Shown here: piece by piece, positions 21,525-31,332 of the stretch | Position numbering within the stretch: the stretch's first letter is position 1 | Layout of the letters: every line of letters starts with the position of its first letter | NCBI RefSeq assembly: GCF_000186885.1 | Contig: NC_014972.1 | Span: 2,490,001-2,522,000, forward strand | Reading direction: 5' to 3' | Length of the DNA stretch: 32,000 bases | Source: Desulfobulbus propionicus DSM 2032 | Lineage (GTDB): Bacteria > Desulfobacterota > Desulfobulbia > Desulfobulbales > Desulfobulbaceae | The notes under the pieces: model-generated | The model's database searches: none | What the model saw: the letters and a program-made list of their open reading frames with translations, nothing else | Told to the model about the DNA's origin: nothing | Position numbers and translations under genes: made by a program

Positions 21525-21944
21525 TCAAGCCGCCTTCGAATCGGCCTTCTGCACTTTTTTGATTTTCTGCTTGTCGATTTTCTTGGGGACCAGGGCATTG
21601 GCCATGAACGCTGTGCACTGTTTGCGTTTTTCAAAAGGACAATCGGTGATATTCCAGCAAGGTGTGTACTGGAGCAACTTTTTCACGGCGGCAATGGATA
21701 CACCATGTTCGTGGATCATCTCCCGCAGACACTCGATCCATTTGATATCGTTCATGGTGTAGTACCGCCACTTCCCCTTGCGCAAGGGAGCAACCAGCCC
21801 CTCTTCCTCATAAATCCGCAAGGTCCGGGGATGCACCCCAAGCATCTGCGCCGCTACCCCGATGGTAAATATCGCTTTTTGTTCATCAACCATTTCAACC
21901 CTCGCAATGGTAAATTCATGACCGTTCCCCAAGGGAACGGTCAT
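21525..21944 (-). CDS. MerR/HspR-type HTH regulator with a conserved four-Cys cluster (copy 1)
   Basis: The HTH is FTIGVAAQMLGVHPRTLRIYEEEGLV, with wing and alpha3-4 NDIKWIECLREMIHEHGVSIAAVKKLL. This is followed by PCWNITDCPFEKRKQCTA and a Lys-rich tail. The Cys are at 72/96/102/110. An alternative start at 21893 is preceded by GAGGG. By eye it is about half identical to the 28573..29016 product across the core. Confidence 0.8.
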   Translation of the reverse strand: MTVPLGNGHEFTIARVEMVDEQKAIFTIGVAAQMLGVHPRTLRIYEEEGLVAPLRKGKWRYYTMNDIKWIECLREMIHEHGVSIAAVKKLLQYTPCWNITDCPFEKRKQCTAFMANALVPKKIDKQKIKKVQKADSKAA

Positions 21945-21965
21945 GAATCGGATCGATTCCCAGGA

Positions 21966-23150
21966 TCAATGCGCCTCGTGCTCGGTGAAACTCTTGCCAA
22001 AGAATCGTTCGCCCTGAAGGAAGGCTATGCCGGTCAAACCGATACCCGCCATGACCACAAGCCACTCATATCCAGATGGTGTGTAGGTAAGATAGGTGGG
22101 TAAATTATCATAACCGGCATATTGAGGCACGATCTGCCCACCAACCACCATGTTGAGCCGGGAGACAAACATGCCAACCAAGGTCATCAACGCCGCGGTC
22201 GACATGGCCGCCACGCTCTTTAAACGGCTGAGAAGAAGCAGAACGACTGGCGCCGCCAGTCCGACTCCGACCTCAAGTGCCCAGAAATTGAATGACAGCG
22301 GACCGATATAAAGAGCATTGGCAGCGATTTTTCCGTCATTGACGCCTCCGACATAGAACGAAGCCATTCTCCAGAAGGTGGAGACAGCAACCAGGATCAG
22401 CATCAGCAGCAATACCTTGCCGGCAGCGTGCACACCTTCAAAAACATGCTGTTCCATCTTGCGGCCACGAATGACATAGGCATAGTGGGTGAAAAGAATG
22501 GCTGCAGCCGCCCCGGATAGAAAGGCGCAGGCGAGGAAATACACCGGCAATTGGGCCCCATACCAAAACGGTCGAGCGGCTAGGGTGGCGAACACCCCAC
22601 CCAAACAGGTGTTGGCCGCAACCTCGGCCAAGGCGCCGAGAATGCCAAGCACCAGGGCCAAGGTGTAATGGCGGGTGAGGATAAGCCAGAACTCAAGAAG
22701 AATGAAACCAAGCGCCAAACCGTACAGCGTGCCCATCCACCAAATGTTGGAAGTGATGTTTGGCGAAATGATATTGTAGATCGCCATGCGCCATGGACTT
22801 TCGATTTCCATGCCGATGACCGTGAACCCGCTGAGGATGGTGATCAAGGAGATCCACACCATTCTGTTGGCCAGGGGAGCCAGTTTGTTGCCGCCGAACA
22901 CATGGCTGATCGCCGCCAACAAACACAATCCCGTGGAGGTGATGGCAAAAAAAGCGTACGTGGAAATCAAAAGCCCCCAGGGAACTTCACGTGTGTTGTT
23001 GAATATATGTTCATGACCAATAAAAAAACCAACTAGGCCGACACCAACGCCGACGATCAAAAGTAACCCGAAAATACCGGATAAGGTTTTTACCAGGGGA
23101 CTCGCCACCTCCGGTTCAGCTGTTGCAGTCAGTGAAAATCCGTTTGCCAT
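21966..23150 (-). CDS. NrfD/PsrC-family polytopic membrane protein (quinone-interacting subunit type), copy 1
   Basis: 394 aa and highly hydrophobic, with roughly 10 TM segments. It carries the NrfD-type signatures REVPWGLLISTYAFFAITSTGLC and EIESPWRMAIYNIISPNITSNIWWMGTLYG. The RBS is AAGGAGG. It is a paralogue of 29102..30295. Confidence 0.85.
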   Translation of the reverse strand: MANGFSLTATAEPEVASPLVKTLSGIFGLLLIVGVGVGLVGFFIGHEHIFNNTREVPWGLLISTYAFFAITSTGLCLLAAISHVFGGNKLAPLANRMVWISLITILSGFTVIGMEIESPWRMAIYNIISPNITSNIWWMGTLYGLALGFILLEFWLILTRHYTLALVLGILGALAEVAANTCLGGVFATLAARPFWYGAQLPVYFLACAFLSGAAAAILFTHYAYVIRGRKMEQHVFEGVHAAGKVLLLMLILVAVSTFWRMASFYVGGVNDGKIAANALYIGPLSFNFWALEVGVGLAAPVVLLLLSRLKSVAAMSTAALMTLVGMFVSRLNMVVGGQIVPQYAGYDNLPTYLTYTPSGYEWLVVMAGIGLTGIAFLQGERFFGKSFTEHEAH

Positions 23151-23197
23151 GGGCCTAACCTCCTTTTGTGCTTGTTCAATAATGACAATGATGCTGA

Positions 23198-23431
23198 TTA
23201 TAACCGCGCTGGCTCAATCATCTTCTCCCTGTTCTCTTCGCTGGCAAGGGACCCGAGGCCAATCAAGACGACGATGGCTGAAAAGGGCCCTAAAAGAAGA
23301 AAAAGAACAAAGGTGAGACAGAACCAGAAAGACTCGACAATTTGCGTGACATGTGCCCGCATCCACAAGGCGAGAGAATGACCGCCATCATTTCCCGACT
23401 GTTTGGTTTGACTGTACGGTAGGATATTCAT
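23198..23431 (-). CDS. small single-TM protein upstream of NrfD-like copy 1
   Basis: 77-aa ORF with AAGGGGGA 5-6 nt before the ATG. The TM segment is FWFCLTFVLFLLLGPFSAIVVLIGLG, followed by the acidic tail SLASEENREK. It lies 47 nt upstream of the NrfD-like start and downstream of the sigma-54 promoter. No homology was recognised. Confidence 0.5.
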   Translation of the reverse strand: MNILPYSQTKQSGNDGGHSLALWMRAHVTQIVESFWFCLTFVLFLLLGPFSAIVVLIGLGSLASEENREKMIEPARL

Positions 23432-23484
23432 TGGTTTCCCCCTTTTCGTTATCTGCCGATGAAGCGTTTCGATGCCTTTGACAA

Positions 23485-23500
23485 CGCAAGGGATATGCCA
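23485..23500 (-). promoter_or_regulatory. sigma-54 (-24/-12) promoter
   Basis: The minus strand reads TGGCATATCCCTTGCG. This matches TGGCAY-N5-TTGC with the exact GG-N10-GC spacing. The GC lies 55 nt upstream of the ATG at 23431. Confidence 0.65.
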
Positions 23501-24091
23501 CCTGGATATGCGAGCGCCTTCTTTTCACGAAAGAATGACATAACGACTTGAAGTTACGTTTGTTTTACAATCTACAACAATTTGTTTTTAAGTTTTCAGT
23601 CCATCTACGATTGTCAATATTTTACTGGTACACGATCAAAATTAGCCCACATGCCACACTACGATTGATCAAAATACGCCTGATCTTTTCCGTGACACCA
23701 AGGGGACGCATGCATACTCCCAGGAAAAAAACGTCAATAATTTCAAACGATATCGTCCAGCAAGGCCAAAACTACCAACCCATGCCTTTCTTTACCGCTT
23801 CCGATAACAAAAGAACGGCTTCAAAAAAATATCTATAAATTCAATGTATTATAAAAAGCCAGCCACACGAGCGGCGCATTTCAAGTCCATCCAGACAAGA
23901 AACCACGCAACGACAGGGGACCGCTTCAAGGGAACGGTAGAGGGGTACCGTCATCGATACTCCACGAACCAATGAGTTAATCAAACAGGAAGGGAGGGGG
24001 GAGAGAGTGACAAGCCATGCTAGGTGTCGCGGAAAGAGTTGGAACCGCTATTGTCAGGAAAGTTGTCAATAGCGGTGGAGAGCTGAAAGGG

Positions 24092-24116
24092 CGGGACGGG
24101 CAGGACACCCGTCCCG
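24092..24116 (-). terminator. terminator-like GC hairpin after the cytochrome gene
   Basis: CGGGACGGG (24092-24100) pairs with CCCGTCCCG (24108-24116). It lies 18 nt downstream of the stop at 24134 and is followed on the minus strand by CCCTTTC. A second 10-bp inverted repeat, ACCGCTATTG/CAATAGCGGT, sits at 24044-24076. Confidence 0.5.
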
Positions 24117-24133
24117 ATATGCTGAGCGGACGA

Positions 24134-24853
24134 TCAGTGTTCTTTTTTCCCGTGGTCCTTGCCTTCGACTTGGGCCGCGCCGGCAAATTTGCGCTCGAAT
24201 CCCTTTACGCCAATGTGACAGGTGGTACAACGGGTGTTGGAGGCAAAGGCGTCGGTGCCGTTATGGCAGACACCACAGTATTTGCCCGCATAGAGCGCCT
24301 CCATGGTAAATTTTTCTGGATGTTCTTCGGCTGCACCTTTGCGCATTTCAAAGGCCTTATCATGGCAGCTGGCACAGTCAAGCCCCATGTCAACATGCCC
24401 CTTGTGCTCGAATATGACCGATTTCACGGGAACATTAAACACAATGGTCTCCGGCTGCTTCATATCGCTACCATGGCAGACCTTGCAGGTTTCTGGTCCG
24501 GTGGTGTTGAACGCCATTTTGCCATCATGGCAGGCACCGCAGTATTTGCCGGCATCCAGGGAAGCCATGTTATAATCGCCCTTGGCCTTGGTTGATCCGC
24601 GTTTGCGCTCAAAGAGATCGGGGTGACAGCTGTCACAACTCAAGCCAGCGGTCACCACATGGGATTTGTGGCTGAACATCTCCTTGACCGGTTCCACAGC
24701 GATCACCTGGGTTTGGCCATAGGATTCAAATTGCTTGTCCTGGGCGGGCGGCTGTGCTGCGGTCGGGGCAGTTGCCTGAATATCGGCGGTGCACAATACC
24801 CCTGCGGCGACAAGAAGACCAAGGGCTGCGAGTATTTTCGTTTTTGTGTTCAT
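24134..24853 (-). CDS. periplasmic hexahaem cytochrome c (two tandem c7/c3-like trihaem domains)
   Basis: It has a signal peptide, MNTKTKILAALGLLVAAGVLCTA. There are six CxxCH motifs: CDSCH, CGACH, CKVCH, CASCH, CGVCH and CTTCH. They fall into two repeats of the pattern F.HK.H.....L.C..CH...F........GKYCG.CH.G..AF....C..CH. Confidence 0.9.
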   Translation of the reverse strand: MNTKTKILAALGLLVAAGVLCTADIQATAPTAAQPPAQDKQFESYGQTQVIAVEPVKEMFSHKSHVVTAGLSCDSCHPDLFERKRGSTKAKGDYNMASLDAGKYCGACHDGKMAFNTTGPETCKVCHGSDMKQPETIVFNVPVKSVIFEHKGHVDMGLDCASCHDKAFEMRKGAAEEHPEKFTMEALYAGKYCGVCHNGTDAFASNTRCTTCHIGVKGFERKFAGAAQVEGKDHGKKEH

Positions 24854-24874
24854 AGTCCCCTCTCCTTCCGCTGT

Positions 24875-25630
24875 TTAGGCATTCATATAAAAGACATTGG
24901 GCAAGGCGCCGGTTTCCGGCCGCAGGACCCAGACCGTTGTTTCCGGCCGATGCACCAGTTTATAGACCTCGCTGTTTGGATCGCTGAGATCGCCGAACAC
25001 CCGGACCTTAGCCGGACAGGCTTCCACGCAGGCTGTGTCTTTTTTCCCTTTGGACAAGCGGGTGTCATAGCAGAAATTGCATTTATCGACCGCGCGAATT
25101 TCTTCATTGAAGTACCGTGCATTATAGGGACAAGCGGCCATACAGGTCTTGCAGCCGATGCATTTCTTGCTATCCATGACCACGATACCGGTGGTTTTAT
25201 CCTTGTAGGTGGCCACGGTGGGGCAAACGCGGACACAGGGCGGCTCGTTGCACTGGTTGCAGAGCACGGGCATGAATATTGTCTCTTTTTCTTTGGGTCC
25301 GATCTCCCGGACTCTTTCCAGGATCATGGTCCGCCAACCATAGGGAGGCACATGGTTGGTTTGGACACAGGCCTCCATGCAGCGTTCGCAATCGACGCAG
25401 AGATTCTGGCGCATGACCATGCTGTAATGAGGGCTGTAGGGGTATTTCTCGGTCTTTGGCGGAGCGCCCACAGCACTTTCGGCGTTGCGAACGCTGGTCA
25501 GCGACAGTATCGTCCCCCCCATGAACAATCCGGTAATGGCGAGTCCGGCGCGCAAAAAGGTTCGGCGCTCAAGTGAAGGCAGGTGTTCCACACCTTCATT
25601 GTTTAATTTTTCCAGCTCATTAATGTTCAT
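24875..25630 (-). CDS. Tat-exported 4x[4Fe-4S] ferredoxin-type subunit (NrfC/PsrB/HybA/HmcB family)
   Basis: The twin-arginine signal is SLERRTFLRAGLAITGLFMGG. There are four cluster motifs: CVDCERCMEAC, CNQCNEPPCVRVCP, CIGCKTCMAACP and CNFC...CVEACP. Confidence 0.9.
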   Translation of the reverse strand: MNINELEKLNNEGVEHLPSLERRTFLRAGLAITGLFMGGTILSLTSVRNAESAVGAPPKTEKYPYSPHYSMVMRQNLCVDCERCMEACVQTNHVPPYGWRTMILERVREIGPKEKETIFMPVLCNQCNEPPCVRVCPTVATYKDKTTGIVVMDSKKCIGCKTCMAACPYNARYFNEEIRAVDKCNFCYDTRLSKGKKDTACVEACPAKVRVFGDLSDPNSEVYKLVHRPETTVWVLRPETGALPNVFYMNA

Positions 25631-25973
25631 TCCATACCCTCAAGATAAAAAGTAACGAAGACGACATCGGCACCTTGTGCTACAATGTGTTGTTATGGCC
25701 CGAAAAAAAAAGCCCTAGAATGAATAGCCACTCATTAATTAAAAAATGCAACGAGGGAACATAACCCAAAACCAAGAGAAGAGCAAGTTTTCAAATATAT
25801 GCTATAGTAAGGCAACTTCGCACAGCCAATTTTCACTCCTGGCACCCGTTGCGGCGGAGTGCCGCTGATGCAATCGAAATCAGTGTTTCGTTTCTCGCAC
25901 GGCTGAATCTTTTTATCCCGGAATGTGAACTGTTGACCGGTTCGCGCTTCCCTCCACCAAGCGGCGGCTGACC

Positions 25974-28379
25974 ATGAATAAAAATCTTTCCCGGGAACAC
26001 CCTGTGTTCCAGAACACATTGGCGGTATTCTCCCTTGACCGCGACTGCCGGATCATCGGGTTGAATAAAAATGCAGAACTGCTCACCGGTCGGCCCTTAG
26101 GCGAATTGTTTGGCAAATCAATGGATGAGCTCCTGCTGTTCAAAGGACAAACCGTCAATTTGGCCGAACTCTTCTCCCAGGCGGATTGGGAACAATCGCT
26201 TTCCCGCCAGTCCCTCTTGCTGCAGACTGACCAGGAAATCCGTCCCATCGACGTCCTGGCCACGGTGACCCCATTATGGGATCGCCACCGCGCGCTCTGC
26301 GGCGCGCTTGTCACCCTGGACAGCACCAATGAATCGCTCTATCACCAACTGCTTCTGGACAGCGTCTCCGAAGGCGTGCTAACCGTCAACCGCGACATGG
26401 AAATCATCTCGTTCAACCGCGCAGCGGAAGCGATCACCGGTTGGAAGACCGAGGAAATTCTCGGCAAGAACTGTCAGGATGTCTTTCCGGAAGAACTGTG
26501 CGAAAACGGCTGTCTGATTCGCTCCTCGATCGAGCGGGAGCAGTCGTTTGCGGCCCAGACCGTATTCATGACCCATAAGGACGGTCGGTTTTTCCCCCTG
26601 TCGCTAACCTCCTCGCCGCTCTACGATCTCAACGGCAAGGTCATCGGCGGAGTACAGACCTTTCATGATTGCTCCGACAGCCTCAACAATGCCTTGATCC
26701 TGGCTTCGGTGGCCGACGGCGTGTTCACCATCGACCGCAACCGGACCATCACCTCCTTCAATCGAGCGGCGGAATCGATCACCGGCTGGAAACAGGAAGA
26801 GGTGATCGGTAAACCCTGCAACGAAATTTTCCATTCCAGCGTCTGCGGCAGCGACTGCATGCTGATGAAGGCTATCGACCGCAACAACATGTACATCGAC
26901 CGGTCCATCTTCATCAAGGGCAAGGCGGGCAATTCCATCCCGGTGACCATCAGCTCGGCGCCGTTGTTCGACGATTTCGGCAATATCATCGGCGGCATCG
27001 AAACGTTCCGCGACAACACCTCCTCCATCCGTGAAAGCCTGATCCTTGATTCCATAGCCGATGGCGTGTTCACCGTGGACCGCAACTGGAACATCACCTC
27101 GTTCAACAGGGCCGCCGAGGAGATCACCGGCTGGTCACGGGAGGATGCCATGGGCATGTCCTGCTCAGACATCTTCCACTCGTCGATCTGCGGCAAAAAC
27201 TGCGCCATCGCCGAAAGCCTCTACAGCGGCAAACCGGTGGCCAACCGCTCGATCACCATCCGCAACAGTCAGGGGGAAAAGGTGCCGATCAGTATCAGCG
27301 CCGCCCCGCTCACCGATCATGAAGGCAACATTATCGGCGGGGTGGAGACCTTCCGCGATCTGACCGCGATCACCAGCCTGCGCCAGCAATTGAGCCAGAA
27401 ATATACCTTTGACGCGATCATCTCCAAGTCAGCCGCCATGCAGCGGCTGTTCAACATTCTTCCGGAAATCGCCCGCAGCCCCAGCACCGTGCTCATTCTC
27501 GGGGAATCCGGCACCGGCAAGGAATTGGTCGCCAGGGCGCTCTACAATGCTAGCGAACGCAAGGACAAGCCCTTTGTGGTGGTCAACTGCGCGGCCCTGC
27601 CGGAAACTCTGCTTGAATCCGAACTGTTCGGTTACAAGGCCGGCGCCTTCACCGATGCCCGCAAGGACAAGATCGGCCGTTTTGCCGCCGCCGAGGGCGG
27701 CACACTGTTCCTCGACGAGATCGGCGACATTCCCGGCGCCGTTCAGGTCAAACTGCTGCGCGTTCTCCAGGAAAAGGTCTACGAGCCGCTGGGCTCCAAC
27801 ACGCCGGTCAAGGCCGATGTGCGCATCATCACCGCCACCAACCGCAACCTCCAGGCCCTGGTCAAGGAAGGAGCTTTCCGCGACGACCTCTTCTACCGCC
27901 TCAATGTGGTCAAAATCAACCTGCCGCCGTTGCGTGAACGCAAGGAGGACATCCCGTTGTTGATCGATCACTTCATTAAAAAATACAGTGCCCAACAGGG
28001 TAAGGACATCGTCGGTATATCCAGCGGCGCCTTGGCCATCCTCATGCGCTACGACTATCCCGGCAACATCCGTGAATTGGAAAATATTGTCGAATATTCC
28101 TTTATCCTCTGCGAAGGCGGCTATATCCAACCCCAACATCTGCCCGAACCCTTTGCCGCCGGTTTCGAGCAACCCGCCTCCCGCGCCGTGCAGGATGACG
28201 GGCCGCAGACGCTTGAGGAGATCGAAAAACAGGCGATCATTCTCAGTCTGGAGCGCAACCGTTGGCGCAAGATGGCCACCTGCCGGGAACTGGCGATCTC
28301 CAAGGACACTCTGCGCCGCAAGATCGAACGCTATGGTATCCACAATCCGCTGACGGGCGAAGCCGAACAGGAAGAATAA
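25974..28379 (+). CDS. sigma-54-dependent transcriptional activator (bEBP) with four N-terminal PAS domains, an AAA+ sigma-54 interaction domain and a Fis-type HTH
   Basis: 801 aa. Walker A is GESGTGKE, the GAFTGA loop reads GAFTDA, and Walker B is LFLDEIG. RVIAATN-like (RIITATN) and FRDDLFYRLNV are present. The C-terminal HTH is ATCRELAISKDTLRRKIERYGI. Confidence 0.92.
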   Translation: MNKNLSREHPVFQNTLAVFSLDRDCRIIGLNKNAELLTGRPLGELFGKSMDELLLFKGQTVNLAELFSQADWEQSLSRQSLLLQTDQEIRPIDVLATVTPLWDRHRALCGALVTLDSTNESLYHQLLLDSVSEGVLTVNRDMEIISFNRAAEAITGWKTEEILGKNCQDVFPEELCENGCLIRSSIEREQSFAAQTVFMTHKDGRFFPLSLTSSPLYDLNGKVIGGVQTFHDCSDSLNNALILASVADGVFTIDRNRTITSFNRAAESITGWKQEEVIGKPCNEIFHSSVCGSDCMLMKAIDRNNMYIDRSIFIKGKAGNSIPVTISSAPLFDDFGNIIGGIETFRDNTSSIRESLILDSIADGVFTVDRNWNITSFNRAAEEITGWSREDAMGMSCSDIFHSSICGKNCAIAESLYSGKPVANRSITIRNSQGEKVPISISAAPLTDHEGNIIGGVETFRDLTAITSLRQQLSQKYTFDAIISKSAAMQRLFNILPEIARSPSTVLILGESGTGKELVARALYNASERKDKPFVVVNCAALPETLLESELFGYKAGAFTDARKDKIGRFAAAEGGTLFLDEIGDIPGAVQVKLLRVLQEKVYEPLGSNTPVKADVRIITATNRNLQALVKEGAFRDDLFYRLNVVKINLPPLRERKEDIPLLIDHFIKKYSAQQGKDIVGISSGALAILMRYDYPGNIRELENIVEYSFILCEGGYIQPQHLPEPFAAGFEQPASRAVQDDGPQTLEEIEKQAIILSLERNRWRKMATCRELAISKDTLRRKIERYGIHNPLTGEAEQEE
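26337..27362 (+). repeat. three tandem ~345-nt (115-aa) PAS-domain-coding repeats inside the bEBP gene
   Basis: DSVSEGVLTVNRDMEIISFNRAAEAITGW (aa 129), ASVADGVFTIDRNRTITSFNRAAESITGW (aa 244) and DSIADGVFTVDRNWNITSFNRAAEEITGW (aa 359) recur at an exact 115-aa period. Each ends in (V/I)IGG(V/I)(Q/E)TF(H/R)D. Confidence 0.8.
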
Positions 28380-28572: not shown

Positions 28573-29016
28573 TCAACCGGACGATTGGTGCTTTTTTTTT
28601 TGCCCGGGTTCGCCCCGACTCTGCCGATCCTTTTCCTTGGCCTCCAGCCGGGCGGCCGCATCACCTACCGGATGCAGCGTCCGCGGCACGGCCCGATCGA
28701 CCTTGGCCGTGCACTGTTGCTGGATTTCTGCTGGACATCCAGCCACTTCCCAGCAGGGAACCAAATCGAGCAGCTTTTTCAGCCCCGGAATACTGATCCC
28801 CTCTTCATGGATAAAGGTGCGCAGACAGGTTATCCATTGAATATCATCGGCGGAAAACATCCGCCGGTTGCCGACAAGGGTCGGCTTGATCAATCCTTCC
28901 TGTTCATAAATCCGCAACGTCCGCGGATGCACATTCAGCAACTTGGCGGCGACTCCGATCGGATAGATAGGCACATCGGACCGTATCGCCTGTATTTCCG
29001 TTTTCTTTCTTGCCAT
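28573..29016 (-). CDS. MerR/HspR-type HTH regulator with a conserved four-Cys cluster (copy 2)
   Basis: 147 aa with the RBS GGAGG 6 nt upstream. The core is IYPIGVAAKLLNVHPRTLRIYEQEGLI...DDIQWITCLRTFIHEEGISIPGLKKLL..PCWEVAGCPAEIQQQCTA. The Cys are at 64/88/94/102, the same C-x23-C-x5-C-x7-C spacing as copy 1. Confidence 0.8.
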   Translation of the reverse strand: MARKKTEIQAIRSDVPIYPIGVAAKLLNVHPRTLRIYEQEGLIKPTLVGNRRMFSADDIQWITCLRTFIHEEGISIPGLKKLLDLVPCWEVAGCPAEIQQQCTAKVDRAVPRTLHPVGDAAARLEAKEKDRQSRGEPGQKKKHQSSG

Positions 29017-29047
29017 GCCGGCCTCCTCTGTCAGTGCGGGGCGCCGG

Positions 29048-29084
29048 GACGGAGCGGCAAGCTGTCAGCGCCTGCCGCTCCGTC
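29048..29084 (-). other. 12-bp perfect GC-rich hairpin between NrfD-like copy 2 and MerR-like copy 2
   Basis: GACGGAGCGGCA (29048-29059) pairs with TGCCGCTCCGTC (29073-29084) around a 13-nt loop. No U-tract follows on the minus strand. It is flanked by a direct CTGTCAG repeat. Confidence 0.5.
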
Positions 29085-29101
29085 GTTCGACACACAATCC
29101 A

Positions 29102-30295
29102 TCAGTGCTCTTCGGACAGATGACCGCGGAACAGCCGTTCGCCCATCATGAAGAGGATTCCGCAGAAGGTAAAGCCGGACAGGGTCACCATCCACTCGTG
29201 CAAGGTCGGCGCATAGGGCAAAATATGCGGCAGATCAACAATATTGAATTGATGAAACCCGGGAATGATTTGCCCAACGATCACCAGATCGTAGCGCATG
29301 ACGAAGATGCCGATGATGCTGGCCAGCGAGCCGAGCGCCATGGCCGTCAGGTTCTTGGCCCGAACCGCAAGGATGATCAGGAAGGGGATGACCAGCCCCA
29401 GAGCAACCTCGCCATACCAGAAATTCTTGGCAAAGGGACCGTTGATCAGGGCCATGATCGCCTCGTATTTTCCCGGCGGATGACCGGAGATACCGGAGAT
29501 CAATTTCCAGGTGGTGAAGAACATGATGATGAGGTACAGCAACGCTCCCAGTTTGGCCACAGAACGCAGGGACTCCTGCAGCTGCTCGCTCATCTTCCAG
29601 CCGTTGATCTTATACCCCAGCCAATGAAAGAAAATCACCGTGGCGCACCCGGACATCATGGCCGAGGTGATGAAGTAGATCGGCATATAGGGGCCATGCC
29701 AGAACTCACGGCCATTCAGGAGTCCAAATACCGCCCCGAGATTGGAATGAGCGGCAACACCCGAAATAACGCCCAATAGACCGCACATGCCGGCAATCTT
29801 ATGCCTGCCGGCCTGCAACAGGGCAAACTCGATCAGCATGAAGAACAGGTAGGCGCCGTACAACGTGCCCATCCACCAAATGTTGGAACTGAGATTCGGG
29901 GAGATGATGTTGTAGATAGCCATGCGCCAGGGATTTTCAATCTCAAAGGCGATGACCAGAAAACCCGCCACAATGGTGGCAATGGCCAGATAGACCGAAC
30001 GTTTGGCAATGGGCTTGAAGGCCTCGAAGCCGAACACATGGCCAATGGACGAAACCAGACACAGCCCTGTCGAGGTCACGACAAAAAAGACGTAAGCGCC
30101 CAGCATCAGCCCCCATGGGACTTCGCGGGTGACACCATACACATGTTCATGGCCGGCAAACATGGCGTGCACGCCAAAGGCGATTCCCACCAGGGTGAAC
30201 AGACCCAACAGACCGATCACGCCGTTGTACACGCTGGACCGGCTCCCTTCAAGCCCCCCTTCCTGGGGCAGAACCTTGGTTAATATATTTTCCAT
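29102..30295 (-). CDS. NrfD/PsrC-family polytopic membrane protein, copy 2
   Basis: 397 aa with the RBS AAAGGAGAAGG. It shares long blocks with copy 1: REVPWGLMLGAYVFFVVTSTGLC, EIENPWRMAIYNIISPNLSSNIWWMGTLYG and MVVGGQI/LVIVGQI. No FeS or cytochrome gene is adjacent. Confidence 0.85.
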   Translation of the reverse strand: MENILTKVLPQEGGLEGSRSSVYNGVIGLLGLFTLVGIAFGVHAMFAGHEHVYGVTREVPWGLMLGAYVFFVVTSTGLCLVSSIGHVFGFEAFKPIAKRSVYLAIATIVAGFLVIAFEIENPWRMAIYNIISPNLSSNIWWMGTLYGAYLFFMLIEFALLQAGRHKIAGMCGLLGVISGVAAHSNLGAVFGLLNGREFWHGPYMPIYFITSAMMSGCATVIFFHWLGYKINGWKMSEQLQESLRSVAKLGALLYLIIMFFTTWKLISGISGHPPGKYEAIMALINGPFAKNFWYGEVALGLVIPFLIILAVRAKNLTAMALGSLASIIGIFVMRYDLVIVGQIIPGFHQFNIVDLPHILPYAPTLHEWMVTLSGFTFCGILFMMGERLFRGHLSEEH

Positions 30296-30391
30296 GGCAC
30301 CTTCTCCTTTACGGAATCAACGACCCCAATCGTCGTTATTCCGGCTGATTAATAACCGTTGAATCAAACCACATCGGGACGAACAATTTGG

Positions 30392-30508
30392 TCAGGGCAA
30401 ATCGCTTTCTTCTCGCAAAGACTGAAGAACCGGCTTGATTCTCAGATCAAACAGCGTATGGAGAACAGCACCACCCAACCAGATAACGAAAAAAATAAGA
30501 GCTTCCAT
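30392..30508 (-). CDS. candidate 38-aa single-TM peptide upstream of NrfD-like copy 2 (too short for the ORF track)
   Basis: Hand translation gives MEALIFFVIWLGGAVLHTLFDLRIKPVLQSLREESDLP. A strong RBS, AAGGAG, lies 6 nt before the ATG at 30508. Position and architecture (TM then acidic tail SLREES) match the 77-aa ORF of copy 1 (tail SLASEEN). Confidence 0.4.
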   Translation of the reverse strand: MEALIFFVIWLGGAVLHTLFDLRIKPVLQSLREESDLP

Positions 30509-31332
30509 TTGCTTCTCCTTGTTCCGGATCTCCGGACAGTTGTTGTGCACCAGGATTTATTGGCGGATAAACACCCGGTTGATTGTCTTTTGCGCGGCAC
30601 CTCCTTGCGATGCGACCCGGCACCATTCTGCGGCTGCCGGATCTGGTCCTCGAATATTTCCTTGCTGCTTTTTTATCCAGCGGCGAATACGCTGTCAAGA
30701 AAAACAACGGTCGATTGTTAAAAAATATGTAAATAAATAGATCAATATTCGCCCGATAAAAAGATTTCAACTTGCATGCGAAATAAATATTTTCGATATT
30801 ATCCACCGCAATTATTTGTATATATTTATTTTTAGGCATTTTTATTCAATAATTAATCAAGACACCACTACCCTTTCCCCGAAATAGCAATCCAACTCGC
30901 GGTTCTCATTATGCGTCTAAAAAATAACATTATGATCAAAATGCGCCCACACTGTTCACCCTCTCCGCAACCGCAGGTTCCCGGTATCCCTCAGAACCGG
31001 ACCAAAGGGGCAGAATATCGACCTGATAGAAAAGAACACCCGAGCAGCAGGTAATGCTTGACTATGGAACAAATACTGCAAATGATATTTTTAGCTACTC
31101 GCCTTCATCCAGATGACGAGCGAGCTTCCTTTTTCCCCTTCAAGGTGGCGGCCTTGGAGGGGATTTCTTTTCCCCTCCCCTTCCTCCGGCTTTACCTTTA
31201 CCGCGATTTATGGTAGCCCTGATCAGACATGCCGCTTGCTTGGGCGGCCGTGGCCTTGGGCCTCCCGCCCGCGCCATCGTCAACTTTGGGCGCATTTTTT
31301 CCATCGTCTTGTTCATTCCCCAGGAGCCTTGC

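What the first reader, a model, noticed from the sequence alone, without database searches (positions are those of the whole stretch)
26337..27362. The sigma-54 activator carries three tandem PAS domains, each with a conserved C-x8-C-x3-C triad
Seen in sequence. PAS2-4 repeat at an exact 115-aa (345-nt) period with very similar sequence. Each carries three Cys at the same positions: C167/C176/C180, C282/C291/C295 and C397/C406/C410. The contexts are GKNCQDVFPEELCENGC, GKPCNEIFHSSVCGSDC and GMSCSDIFHSSICGKNC. The last two also have a His in FHSS. PAS1 lacks the triad.

Established knowledge. PAS domains bind haem, flavin, metals, or in a few cases (for example NreB) a Cys-ligated Fe-S cluster. 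Cys triads in bEBP sensor domains (for example the VnfA GAF domain) are associated with Fe-S sensing.

Inference. This may be a triplicated Cys-ligated cofactor or metal sensor feeding a sigma-54 output, next to Cys-rich MerR-like regulators and respiratory proteins.
Basis: partly seen in the sequence, partly recalled or inferred. Interest (0 to 1): 0.7.

Follow-up and report, generated by a model that had tools for sequence, protein, structure and literature searches.

The report
Triple OrpR-type iron-sulfur PAS sensor
This Desulfobulbus propionicus gene encodes a sigma-54 activator whose sensor end carries three tandem copies of the cysteine-triad PAS domain that binds a redox-sensitive iron-sulfur cluster in Desulfovibrio OrpR. 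The domain type is therefore known, but this tandem arrangement and its link to a membrane redox gene cluster were not described in the literature I could search.

Summary
ORF 25974-28379 (+) encodes an 801-aa regulator with four PAS domains, a sigma-54 AAA+ domain and a Fis-type HTH. C-x8-C-x3-C sits at C167/176/180, C282/291/295 and C397/406/410, exactly 115 aa apart. PAS1 lacks it.

In OrpR (DVU2106) of Desulfovibrio vulgaris, C52/C61/C65 have the same spacing and are proposed to hold a redox-labile [4Fe-4S] cluster in the PAS domain (PMC8359166). An OrpR orthologue aligns with PAS4+AAA+ at 58% identity, and an OrpR-like protein aligns through the HTH at 59%. Both share the unusual GAFTDA loop.

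Across 73 homologues the triad is invariant in PAS4, nearly invariant in PAS3 and incomplete in some PAS2 domains.

The gene is not beside orp genes. In five of six other loci it sits beside the same genes: Fe-S protein, c7-type cytochrome, small ORF, NrfD and MerR. A conserved sigma-54 promoter (23500-23485, minus strand) has OrpR-box-like sites 141 and 174 nt upstream.

I read it as an OrpR-family redox sensor with a triplicated cluster-binding module. Cluster binding itself is inferred, not shown. It is a new variant of a known kind and moderately interesting.

The parts
25974..28379 (+). Gene for the 801-aa OrpR-family sigma-54 activator (PAS x4, AAA+, lid, HTH_8)
   Evidence: ORF listed. 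Pfam domains. It is 100% identical to the D. propionicus protein named 'PAS modulated sigma54 specific transcriptional regulator, Fis family' (P0009).
25974..26336 (+). PAS1 (aa 1-121), without the Cys triad
   Evidence: Only C25 and C109 are present. It is 26-28% identical to the OrpR PAS.
26337..26681 (+). PAS2 (aa 122-236). Triad C167/C176/C180 at nt 26472-26513, D169 at +2, Pro instead of His at +5
   Evidence: 40-44% identity to the OrpR PAS. The three Cys are kept in 63, 65 and 72 of 73 homologues, and C167 is Tyr in 10.
26682..27026 (+). PAS3 (aa 237-351). Triad C282/C291/C295 at nt 26817-26858, E284 at +2, H287 at +5
   Evidence: 45-50% identity to the OrpR PAS. The Cys are kept in 73, 70 and 73 of 73 homologues.
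27027..27371 (+). PAS4 (aa 352-466), next to the AAA+ domain. Triad C397/C406/C410 at nt 27162-27203, D399 at +2, H402 at +5
   Evidence: 54-59% identity to the OrpR PAS, E 1e-44 to 1e-46. All three Cys are invariant in 73 of 73 homologues.
27417..27917 (+). Sigma-54 interaction AAA+ domain. Walker A GESGTGK at nt 27501-27521. GAFTDA loop at nt 27642-27659
   Evidence: Pfam Sigma54_activat, E 2.5e-70. Coordinates. GAFTDA is the variant listed for DVU2106/OrpR (PMC4641369), and each of its six residues is at least 90% conserved in the family.
28209..28334 (+). Fis-type HTH_8 DNA-binding domain. ATCRELAISKDTLRRK matches ATCRELGISKDTLRR of the OrpR-like protein in L031 except for one A/G difference; the SKDTLRR stretch is identical
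   Evidence: for the domain. Sequences.
23485..23500 (-). Sigma-54 promoter-like element TGGCATatcccTTGCG, starting 69 nt upstream of the small-ORF ATG
   Evidence: The same element is found in the equivalent intergenic region of L121, L122, L124 and L125, and 69 nt before the small-ORF start in L121.
23634..23680 (-). Two OrpR-box-like putative UAS sites, GGCTAATTTTGATC and GGCGTATTTTGATC, 33 bp apart and 141 and 174 nt upstream of the -24 element
   Evidence: 5 matches in the window against 0.31 expected by chance. Orthologous loci carry closer matches to the OrpR box GGGCGYRTTTTGCGCCC in the same intergenic region, up to 16 of 17 in L124. Distances.
21525..23431 (-). Likely target operon: 77-aa membrane ORF (23198-23431), NrfD-like protein (21966-23150), MerR-like regulator (21525-21944)
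   Evidence: Pfam and NCBIfam. Synteny. The small ORF is conserved.
24134..25630 (-). Genes divergent from the activator gene: Fe-S protein with a candidate twin-arginine signal (RRTFLR; DsrO/NrfC/TtrB-like, 24875-25630) and a hexahaem c7-type cytochrome (24134-24853)
   Evidence: 6 CxxCH motifs. The RRTFLR motif is read from the translation. Conserved next to the activator in L121-L125. No sigma-54 promoter was found in the 25631-25973 spacer.
28573..30508 (-). Second cassette: 38-aa ORF (30392-30508), NrfD-like paralogue (29102-30295), MerR-like paralogue (28573-29016)
   Evidence: (NrfD paralogues 43% identical, MerR paralogues 49%). Present in L121-L126.
30740..30947 (-). OrpR-box-like sites upstream of the second cassette: GGCGCATTTTGATC at 30934-30947 and a one-mismatch copy at 30740-30753
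   Evidence: No sigma-54 promoter was found here, only a sigma-70-like TTGACA-N17-TAAAAA, so their role is uncertain.

Best explanation
The gene encodes an OrpR-family bacterial enhancer-binding protein. The [4Fe-4S]-binding PAS domain of OrpR has been duplicated into three tandem copies (PAS2-4), placed behind a Cys-less PAS1.

Proposed mechanism:
1. Each triad PAS ligates a redox-labile [4Fe-4S] cluster. The ligands are Cys1 at the start of helix E-alpha, Cys2 in the E-alpha/F-alpha loop and Cys3 at the N-cap of F-alpha. The conserved D/E at +2 is the likeliest fourth ligand.
2. The protein sits on OrpR-box-like sites 141 and 174 nt upstream of the sigma-54 promoter at 23500-23485.
3. With intact clusters, at low redox potential, the PAS array releases the AAA+ domain. 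The AAA+ domain then remodels sigma-54 RNA polymerase and switches on the small-ORF/NrfD/MerR operon.
4. Oxidation or loss of the clusters makes the PAS array repress the ATPase.
5. PAS4 abuts the AAA+ domain and is the most conserved. It is probably the primary transducer, and PAS3 and PAS2 add further cluster sites that could sharpen or grade the response.

Shown here: the motif, its conservation, homology to OrpR, synteny, the conserved promoter and the box-like sites. Inferred: cluster binding, the polarity of the switch, the target operon and any role for multiplicity.
For: Precedent:
- OrpR's C52/C61/C65 have exactly the C-x8-C-x3-C spacing, with a conserved D/E at position 54. The anaerobically purified protein carries an EPR-silent [4Fe-4S]2+ cluster that converts to [3Fe-4S]1+ with mild oxidants. 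The study places this cluster in the PAS domain on the basis of the conserved Cys and a model. The triple Cys-to-Ser mutant and the PAS deletion are both constitutive (PMC8359166).

Homology:
- An OrpR orthologue was fetched through the OrpR box (L053). It lies in an orp-type locus with DUF5320 and MinD/ParA-Fer4 genes, its numbering C52/D54/C61/C65 matches the paper, and its motif is CRDVFHSSICDGAC.
- L053 OrpR aa 12-390 aligns to aa 357-736 here at 58% identity (E 3e-163). The OrpR-like L031 protein, aa 12-433, aligns to aa 357-782 at 59% (E 1e-178). The OrpR PAS is 54-59% identical to PAS4, 45-50% to PAS3 and 40-44% to PAS2.
- The GAFTDA loop variant is shared with DVU2106.

Conservation:
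- The triad is present in 73 of 73 homologues in PAS4, in 70-73 of 73 in PAS3 and in 63-72 of 73 in PAS2. D/E at +2 is present in 70 of 73 PAS4 domains.
- In a broader sample the motif has D/E at +2 in 36 of 43 instances.

Structure:
- An AF2 model of aa 122-470 has pLDDT 84 and shows three canonical PAS folds. The Cys lie at E-alpha and the start of F-alpha, in lower-confidence loops.
- A profile alignment places Cys1 on the photoactive Cys of a LOV domain, which is a pocket-facing position.

Target:
- Synteny with Fe-S protein, cytochrome, small ORF, NrfD and MerR holds in L121, L122, L124 and L125, and partly in L123 and L126.
- The sigma-54 promoter is conserved in five loci.
- OrpR-box-like sites lie upstream of it.
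- The HTH SKDTLRR stretch is identical to that of the L031 OrpR-like protein, which sits beside a perfect OrpR box.
Against: - No metal or cluster measurement exists for this protein.
- OrpR itself was isolated with only 0.3-0.5 cluster per chain, and its fourth ligand is unassigned.
- The PAS2 triad is incomplete in about 14% of homologues and has Pro at +5 in this lineage. Not all three sites may be occupied.
- The window's UAS-like sites match only the left half of the OrpR box (12-13 of 17). They also occur upstream of the second NrfD cassette, which has no sigma-54 promoter. They could be sites for the MerR-like proteins instead.
- The polarity of the switch (active when reduced) is borrowed from OrpR.
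Confidence: 0.7

Rival explanations
1. Only PAS4 is a working Fe-S sensor, as in single-PAS OrpR. PAS2 and PAS3 are duplicated domains that now serve dimerisation, spacing or partner binding. Their Cys are structural or decaying remnants.
For: - Conservation falls with distance from the AAA+ domain. PAS4 keeps the triad in 73 of 73 homologues, while C167 of PAS2 is kept in 63 of 73, with Tyr replacing it in 10.
- 33 of 120 homologues have only two motifs.
- In a rough NJ tree PAS2 of this lineage sits on a long branch.
- PAS2 has Pro instead of His at +5.
Against: - The PAS3 triad is kept in 70-73 of 73 homologues, with E/D at +2 and His at +5.
- Homologues with four motifs keep all of them.
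- Two-triad arrays recur in other activators and in chemoreceptors. This argues for selection on multiple sites.
Confidence: 0.2
2. The triad, with the His of FHSS, binds Zn or another metal, or acts as a thiol/disulfide switch, rather than holding an Fe-S cluster.
For: - Three Cys plus one His is a common Zn ligand set.
- The His is conserved in 66 of 73 PAS4 domains and is replaced by Cys in 4.
- OrpR preparations were sub-stoichiometric in cluster.
- No solved structure of this PAS subtype exists.
Against: - OrpR, with the same motif including the His, shows 320/410-nm absorption. It is EPR-silent as isolated, gives a [4Fe-4S]1+ signal on reduction and a [3Fe-4S]1+ signal with DCPIP, and loses colour in air.
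- Across the wider family +5 is mostly R, K or Q, not His.
Confidence: 0.07
3. The protein is simply the D. propionicus orthologue of OrpR. It controls orp (orange protein complex) operons elsewhere in the genome, and the neighbouring NrfD genes are incidental.
For: - 58-59% identity to OrpR and an OrpR-like protein over PAS4, AAA+ and HTH.
- Shared GAFTDA loop and a near-identical HTH helix.
- Its candidate sites resemble the OrpR box.
Against: - No orp-type genes (MinD/ParA-Fer4, DUF5320) occur anywhere in the 32-kb window, nor in six homologous loci.
- A genuine orp locus, L053, has them directly beside orpR.
- The activator stays beside NrfD-module genes down to 56% identity: the full set in L121, L122, L124 and L125, partly in L123 and L126. 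The locus keeps its own conserved sigma-54 promoter.
Confidence: 0.05

Closest known systems
OrpR (DVU2106) of Desulfovibrio (Nitratidesulfovibrio) vulgaris Hildenborough, a sigma-54 activator with an Fe-S PAS domain (Fievet et al. 2021, PMC8359166)
   Same: - The same C-x8-C-x3-C triad with D/E at +2 and the FHSS context.
- 58-59% identity across PAS, AAA+ and HTH.
- The same GAFTDA loop.
- A Fis-type HTH with a near-identical helix, and similar box-like sites.
   Different: - OrpR has one PAS domain. This protein has four, three of them with the triad.
- OrpR is flanked by the two orp operons. This gene is flanked by an Fe-S protein, a c7-type cytochrome, NrfD and MerR, with no orp genes.
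- The window's boxes have a diverged right half, GATC instead of GCGCC.
NreB of Staphylococcus, a PAS domain with a [4Fe-4S] cluster
   Same: It is a cytoplasmic PAS domain that uses Cys thiolates to hold an oxidant-labile [4Fe-4S] cluster.
   Different: From my own knowledge, NreB uses four Cys in a C-x2-C-x11-C-x2-C arrangement and signals through a histidine kinase. No NreB-like spacing is present here, and NreB did not appear among the PDB or sequence matches.
Tandem cofactor PAS sensors with solved structures: DosP, FixL, MmoS, NifL, PpsR
   Same: These are the best Foldseek matches to the modelled PAS2-4 array. They show the same overall logic, in which stacked PAS domains relay a redox or gas signal to an output domain.
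   Different: Their cofactors are haem or FAD, and usually only one PAS domain of the array is loaded. None carries the Cys triad.
LOV domains (phototropin, AsLOV2)
   Same: A profile alignment puts Cys1 of the triad on the photoactive Cys of GRNCRFLQ, at the start of E-alpha and facing the cofactor pocket. Phototropin LOV domains are weak profile hits.
   Different: The NCRFLQ flavin-binding signature is absent, and Cys2 and Cys3 have no LOV counterpart.

Membership tests
OrpR-type Fe-S PAS sigma-54 activators | PAS domain with three conserved Cys spaced C-x8-C-x3-C (OrpR C52/C61/C65) | tested here: met
   Present three times, at aa 167, 282 and 397. It aligns column for column with the OrpR orthologue L053. 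Conserved in homologues.
OrpR-type Fe-S PAS sigma-54 activators | Conserved Asp/Glu two residues after the first Cys (OrpR position 54) | tested here: met
   D169, E284 and D399. D/E is present in 70 of 73 PAS4 domains and in 36 of 43 motif instances in the broad sample.
OrpR-type Fe-S PAS sigma-54 activators | End-to-end homology of PAS, AAA+ and HTH, with the GAFTDA loop variant | tested here: met
   58-59% identity, E 3e-163 to 1e-178; the HTH is covered only by the L031 alignment because L053 is cut at the locus edge. GAFTDA is at aa 557-562, as listed for DVU2106.
OrpR-type Fe-S PAS sigma-54 activators | Single N-terminal PAS domain (about 450-aa protein) | tested here: not met
   Four PAS domains in an 801-aa protein.
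OrpR-type Fe-S PAS sigma-54 activators | Gene flanked by, and regulating, the two divergent orp operons | tested here: not met
   No MinD/ParA-Fer4 or DUF5320 genes in the window or in six homologous loci. They are present beside orpR in L053.
OrpR-type Fe-S PAS sigma-54 activators | Binds the palindromic UAS GGGCGYRTTTTGCGCCC upstream of a sigma-54 promoter | tested here: inconclusive
   Half-box-like sites GGC-NN-ATTTTGATC lie 141 and 174 nt upstream of a conserved sigma-54 promoter. Orthologous loci have matches of 15-16 of 17. Binding was not tested.
OrpR-type Fe-S PAS sigma-54 activators | Redox-sensitive [4Fe-4S] cluster in the PAS domain | not testable with these tools
   This needs anaerobic purification and spectroscopy.
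NreB-type Fe-S PAS | Four Cys in a C-x2-C-x11-C-x2-C arrangement (my own knowledge) | tested here: not met
   The Cys list of the protein shows no such spacing.
LOV (flavin) PAS | GXNCRFLQ flavin-binding signature | tested here: not met
   Only the Cys position coincides. The motifs here read C[QNS][DE][VI]F.

The most novel reading that the evidence does not exclude
The OrpR-type Cys-triad PAS is a portable Fe-S sensor module, not a peculiarity of OrpR. It is deployed in arrays of one to four copies in sigma-54 activators and in chemotaxis receptors of anaerobes. In this protein, three clusters in series would act as a multi-threshold or cooperative redox rheostat. That rheostat would tune expression of an uncharacterised NrfD-type quinone-linked membrane module. 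The module is itself paired with a second family of Cys-motif MerR regulators.
Probability: 0.25. Interest if true: 0.7.

Novelty: new variant of a known kind. Interest (0 to 1): 0.45.

Why it matters
OrpR was reported in 2021 as the first sigma-54 activator with an Fe-S PAS sensor, and was described as restricted to species that carry orp genes. This locus suggests a broader picture.

- The same cluster-binding PAS has been multiplied within one protein.
- It has been recruited to a different target, a conserved gene set for an Fe-S protein, a cytochrome and an NrfD-like membrane protein in Desulfobulbales and related Thermodesulfobacteriota.
- Relatives of the domain also sit in chemoreceptors.

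If the three domains each hold a cluster, the protein offers a natural system for asking how cluster number and position shape a redox switch. It would also give a regulatory handle on an uncharacterised respiratory module. Even so, it extends a known mechanism and is not a new one.

Tried and rejected
- Tandem Repeats Finder found no DNA repeat. The repeat is visible only at protein level.
- A homology search with one 115-aa PAS domain returned only 8 short fragments. The whole protein had to be used instead.
- Sequence and profile searches of the PDB, and Foldseek on the model, found only generic PAS domains (phytochrome B, DosP, FixL, LOV, MmoS). None has the triad.
- Scanning all genomes with the OrpR box gave mostly chance hits. 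Two of the 120 fetched stretches were useful (L031, L053).
- I considered that the protein might be the counterpart of DVU2956, a minor OrpR ChIP peak. I rejected this because DVU2956 has no N-terminal sensor domain.
- I found no sigma-54 promoter in the spacer between the activator and the Fe-S gene, nor upstream of the second NrfD cassette.
- I tried to measure Cys-Cys distances, but model coordinates are not exposed.
- It could not have shown whether D. propionicus also has a canonical orpR.
- The NJ tree of PAS domains has no support values and is used only as a rough guide.
Full report
**Observation.** The ORF at 25974-28379 (+) encodes an 801-aa protein. Pfam finds four PAS stretches, a sigma-54 interaction AAA+ domain (aa 482-648, E 2.5e-70), an AAA lid and a Fis-type HTH_8. 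No NCBIfam equivalog reaches its cut-off. The pattern C-x8-C-x3-C occurs exactly three times, at aa 167, 282 and 397, which is an exact 115-aa period. PAS1 has only C25 and C109. Random placement of the protein's 15 Cys gives at least one such motif in 0.5% of trials and never three. The repeats are 39-53% identical in protein and 54-61% in DNA, and Tandem Repeats Finder reports nothing. This is therefore an old domain triplication, not a recent repeat. The protein is identical to a Desulfobulbus propionicus protein annotated as a PAS-modulated sigma-54 regulator.

**What the triad is.** A literature search found Fievet et al. 2021 (PMC8359166). OrpR (DVU2106) of Desulfovibrio vulgaris Hildenborough is a PAS, AAA+ and HTH activator. 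Its PAS domain has three fully conserved Cys, C52, C61 and C65, which is C-x8-C-x3-C, plus a conserved D/E at position 54. The anaerobically purified protein is brown, absorbs at 320 and 410 nm and is EPR-silent. It gives a [4Fe-4S]1+ signal on reduction and a [3Fe-4S]1+ signal with DCPIP, and it bleaches in air. The authors place the cluster in the PAS domain on the basis of the conserved Cys and a structural model. A triple Cys-to-Ser mutant and a PAS deletion are both constitutive. The PAS domain therefore represses the AAA+ domain when the redox potential rises.

**Direct comparison with OrpR.** To compare sequences I scanned genomes with the published OrpR box GGGCGYRTTTTGCGCCC. Two of the 120 fetched stretches encode a sigma-54 activator with the motif.
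- L053 (Nitratidesulfovibrio sp.) has the numbering C52/D54/C61/C65, matching the paper, and the motif CRDVFHSSICDGAC. It lies beside DUF5320 and two MinD/ParA-Fer4 genes, which is an orp-type operon.
- L031 (Desulfovibrio sp.) has CWEVFHSSICDGAC but a different neighbourhood.

By BLASTP, L053 OrpR aa 12-390 aligns with aa 357-736 of the window protein at 58% identity (E 3e-163); the L053 protein is cut at the locus edge and lacks its HTH. The L031 protein aligns over aa 12-433 with aa 357-782 (PAS4, AAA+ and HTH) at 59% (E 1e-178). The OrpR PAS is 54-59% identical to PAS4, 45-50% to PAS3, 40-44% to PAS2 and 26-28% to PAS1. The GAFTGA loop reads GAFTDA (aa 557-562). That is the variant tabulated for DVU2106 (PMC4641369), and each of its residues is at least 90% conserved in this family.

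**Conservation.**
- Among 120 homologues of 56-100% identity, 84 have three motifs, 33 have two and 3 have four.
- In a 73-sequence alignment the three Cys of PAS4 are invariant. In PAS3 they are kept in 73, 70 and 73 sequences. In PAS2 they are kept in 63, 65 and 72, and C167 is replaced by Tyr in ten.
- D/E at +2 is present in 70 of 73 PAS4 domains.
- The His at +5 is present in 66 of 73, and four of the exceptions are Cys.
- In a broader sample from a search of 1.84 billion representatives, 28 of the 148 newly returned top hits carry the motif. D/E at +2 is kept in 36 of 43 instances, while +5 is mostly R, K, Q or H. The acidic residue, not the His, is therefore the family-wide candidate fourth ligand, as the OrpR authors suggested.
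- The broader set includes two-triad activators of 560-600 aa. It also includes methyl-accepting chemotaxis proteins with one or two triad PAS domains.
- A rough NJ tree places PAS4 orthologues in a tight clade. The internal PAS domains form a sister group, and OrpR and single-PAS forms fall outside. This suggests duplication within this subfamily (no support values).

**Structure.** An AF2 model of aa 122-470, built with 73 sequences, has mean pLDDT 84 and shows three canonical PAS folds. Cys1 is the first residue of the E-alpha helix, Cys2 ends a short helix, and Cys3 caps F-alpha. Confidence dips to 62-75 in these loops, which would be consistent with a missing cofactor (my interpretation). 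Foldseek finds only generic tandem PAS proteins such as DosP, PpsR, NifL, MmoS and FixL. No PDB sequence carries the triad. A profile of triad PAS domains aligned to AsLOV2 places Cys1 on the photoactive Cys of GRNCRFLQ, a pocket-facing position. The OrpR paper's model gives 5-8 A.

**Context and likely target.** No orp-type genes occur in the window. The activator gene diverges from an Fe-S protein (DsrO/NrfC/TtrB-like) that carries a candidate twin-arginine signal (RRTFLR, read from the translation) and from a hexahaem c7-type cytochrome. These are followed by a 77-aa membrane ORF, an NrfD-like protein and a MerR-like regulator. A second cassette (38-aa ORF, NrfD, MerR) lies downstream of the activator.

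This arrangement recurs around homologues of 59-74% identity in Desulfogranum, Desulfolithobacter, D. alkaliphilus and Thermodesulfobacteriota MAGs. A 56% homologue keeps only the second cassette.

Upstream of it, orthologous loci carry sequences matching the OrpR box at up to 16 of 17 positions.

The window carries a variant, GGC-NN-ATTTTGATC. It occurs at 23634-23647 and 23667-23680, which are 141 and 174 nt from the -24 element. It also occurs twice upstream of the second cassette. That is 5 matches against 0.31 expected.

The HTH sequence ATCRELAISKDTLRR matches that of the L031 protein, which sits beside a perfect OrpR box, except for one A/G difference. The second cassette has no sigma-54 promoter, only a sigma-70-like one. 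The boxes there are unexplained and might belong to the MerR-like proteins.

**Interpretation.** The best-supported reading is an OrpR-family redox sensor with a triplicated cluster-binding PAS domain, controlling the adjacent small-ORF/NrfD/MerR operon from a sigma-54 promoter. By analogy with OrpR, it would be active when the clusters are intact and repressed by the PAS array on oxidation.

The motif, its conservation, the homology, the synteny, the promoter and the box-like sites are shown here. Cluster binding, the polarity of the switch, the target and any function of multiplicity are inferred.

The main rival is that only PAS4 senses and that PAS2 and PAS3 are scaffolds. The conservation gradient favours this, but near-invariance of the PAS3 triad and the recurrence of multi-triad arrays argue against it. 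A Zn or thiol-switch reading, and a reading as the plain OrpR orthologue acting on distant orp genes, are less likely.

**Novelty.** The motif and mechanism have been published for OrpR since 2021. Searches of the held library found no description of multi-triad arrays, of this NrfD-linked regulon or of triad PAS domains in chemoreceptors. A 2026 paper on cable bacteria describes a dsrOP-homologue plus tetrahaem locus in Desulfobulbales that may be related to the neighbouring genes. It does not discuss regulators, and I did not test identity. I rate the finding as a new variant of a known kind, of moderate interest.

Noticed in passing
21525-21944 (-) and 28573-29016 (-): Two MerR-like paralogues, 49% identical, each sit directly after an NrfD-like gene. 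They share a C-terminal motif PCW-x4-C-x7/8-C plus a Cys in W[IV]xC[LI]R. The motif is kept in ten orthologues from six other loci. The N-terminus resembles HspR but scores below the NCBIfam cut-off. This may be a second Cys-based sensor family tied to NrfD genes.
   Followed up: partly
23198-23431 (-) and 30392-30508 (-): Small conserved membrane ORFs lie upstream of each NrfD gene. The 77-aa ORF has orthologues in L121 and L124. The 38-aa ORF MEALIFFVIWLGGAVLHTLFD... has an orthologue in L124. Neither matches any Pfam or NCBIfam family.
   Followed up: partly
P0183, P0188, P0208, P0213 (representative proteins, not in the window): The C-x8-C-x3-C PAS subtype also occurs in methyl-accepting chemotaxis proteins. 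P0183, P0188 and P0208 have two triad motifs each, and P0213 has one, in a HAMP, PAS and MCPsignal architecture. This suggests possible Fe-S-based redox taxis receptors. I found no literature on them.
   Followed up: partly
aa 402 (nt 27177-27179) and aa 287 (nt 26832-26834): The His at +5 of the motif is replaced by Cys in 4 of 73 PAS4 and 3 of 73 PAS3 orthologues. A His-to-Cys exchange is what one might see at a ligand position. In the wider family, however, this position is mostly R, K or Q, and D/E at +2 is better conserved.
   Followed up: partly
21966-25630 (-): This stretch holds a DsrO/NrfC/TtrB-like Fe-S protein, a hexahaem cytochrome with two c7-type triheme domains, and an NrfD/HmcC/DsrP-like membrane protein, with no catalytic subunit. 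None reaches an NCBIfam equivalog cut-off. A 2026 cable-bacteria paper (PMC13047784) describes a 'dsrOhPh-tetrahaem' locus in Desulfobulbales that may be related.
   Followed up: partly
30296-31000 (-): The second NrfD cassette has no sigma-54 promoter. It has a sigma-70-like TTGACA-N17-TAAAAA, with similar elements at the aligned positions in L123, yet it carries OrpR-box-like sites (30934-30947, 30740-30753). It is unclear who binds them.
   Followed up: partly
L031 3408-4742 (-): An OrpR-like single-PAS activator (motif CWEVFHSSICDGAC) in Desulfovibrio sp. W18 has a perfect OrpR box upstream. It lies next to a HAMP-PAS histidine kinase, not orp genes. OrpR-like regulators therefore also occur outside orp loci within Desulfovibrio.
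   Followed up: no
1-21400: The rest of the window is housekeeping: a DEAD-box/MrfA-type helicase, a Tol-Pal-like cluster (TolB, TonB_2, ExbD, TPR), a thioredoxin-reductase-like flavoprotein, CoaBC, UDP-glucose dehydrogenase, a T2SS F protein and enolase.
   Followed up: no
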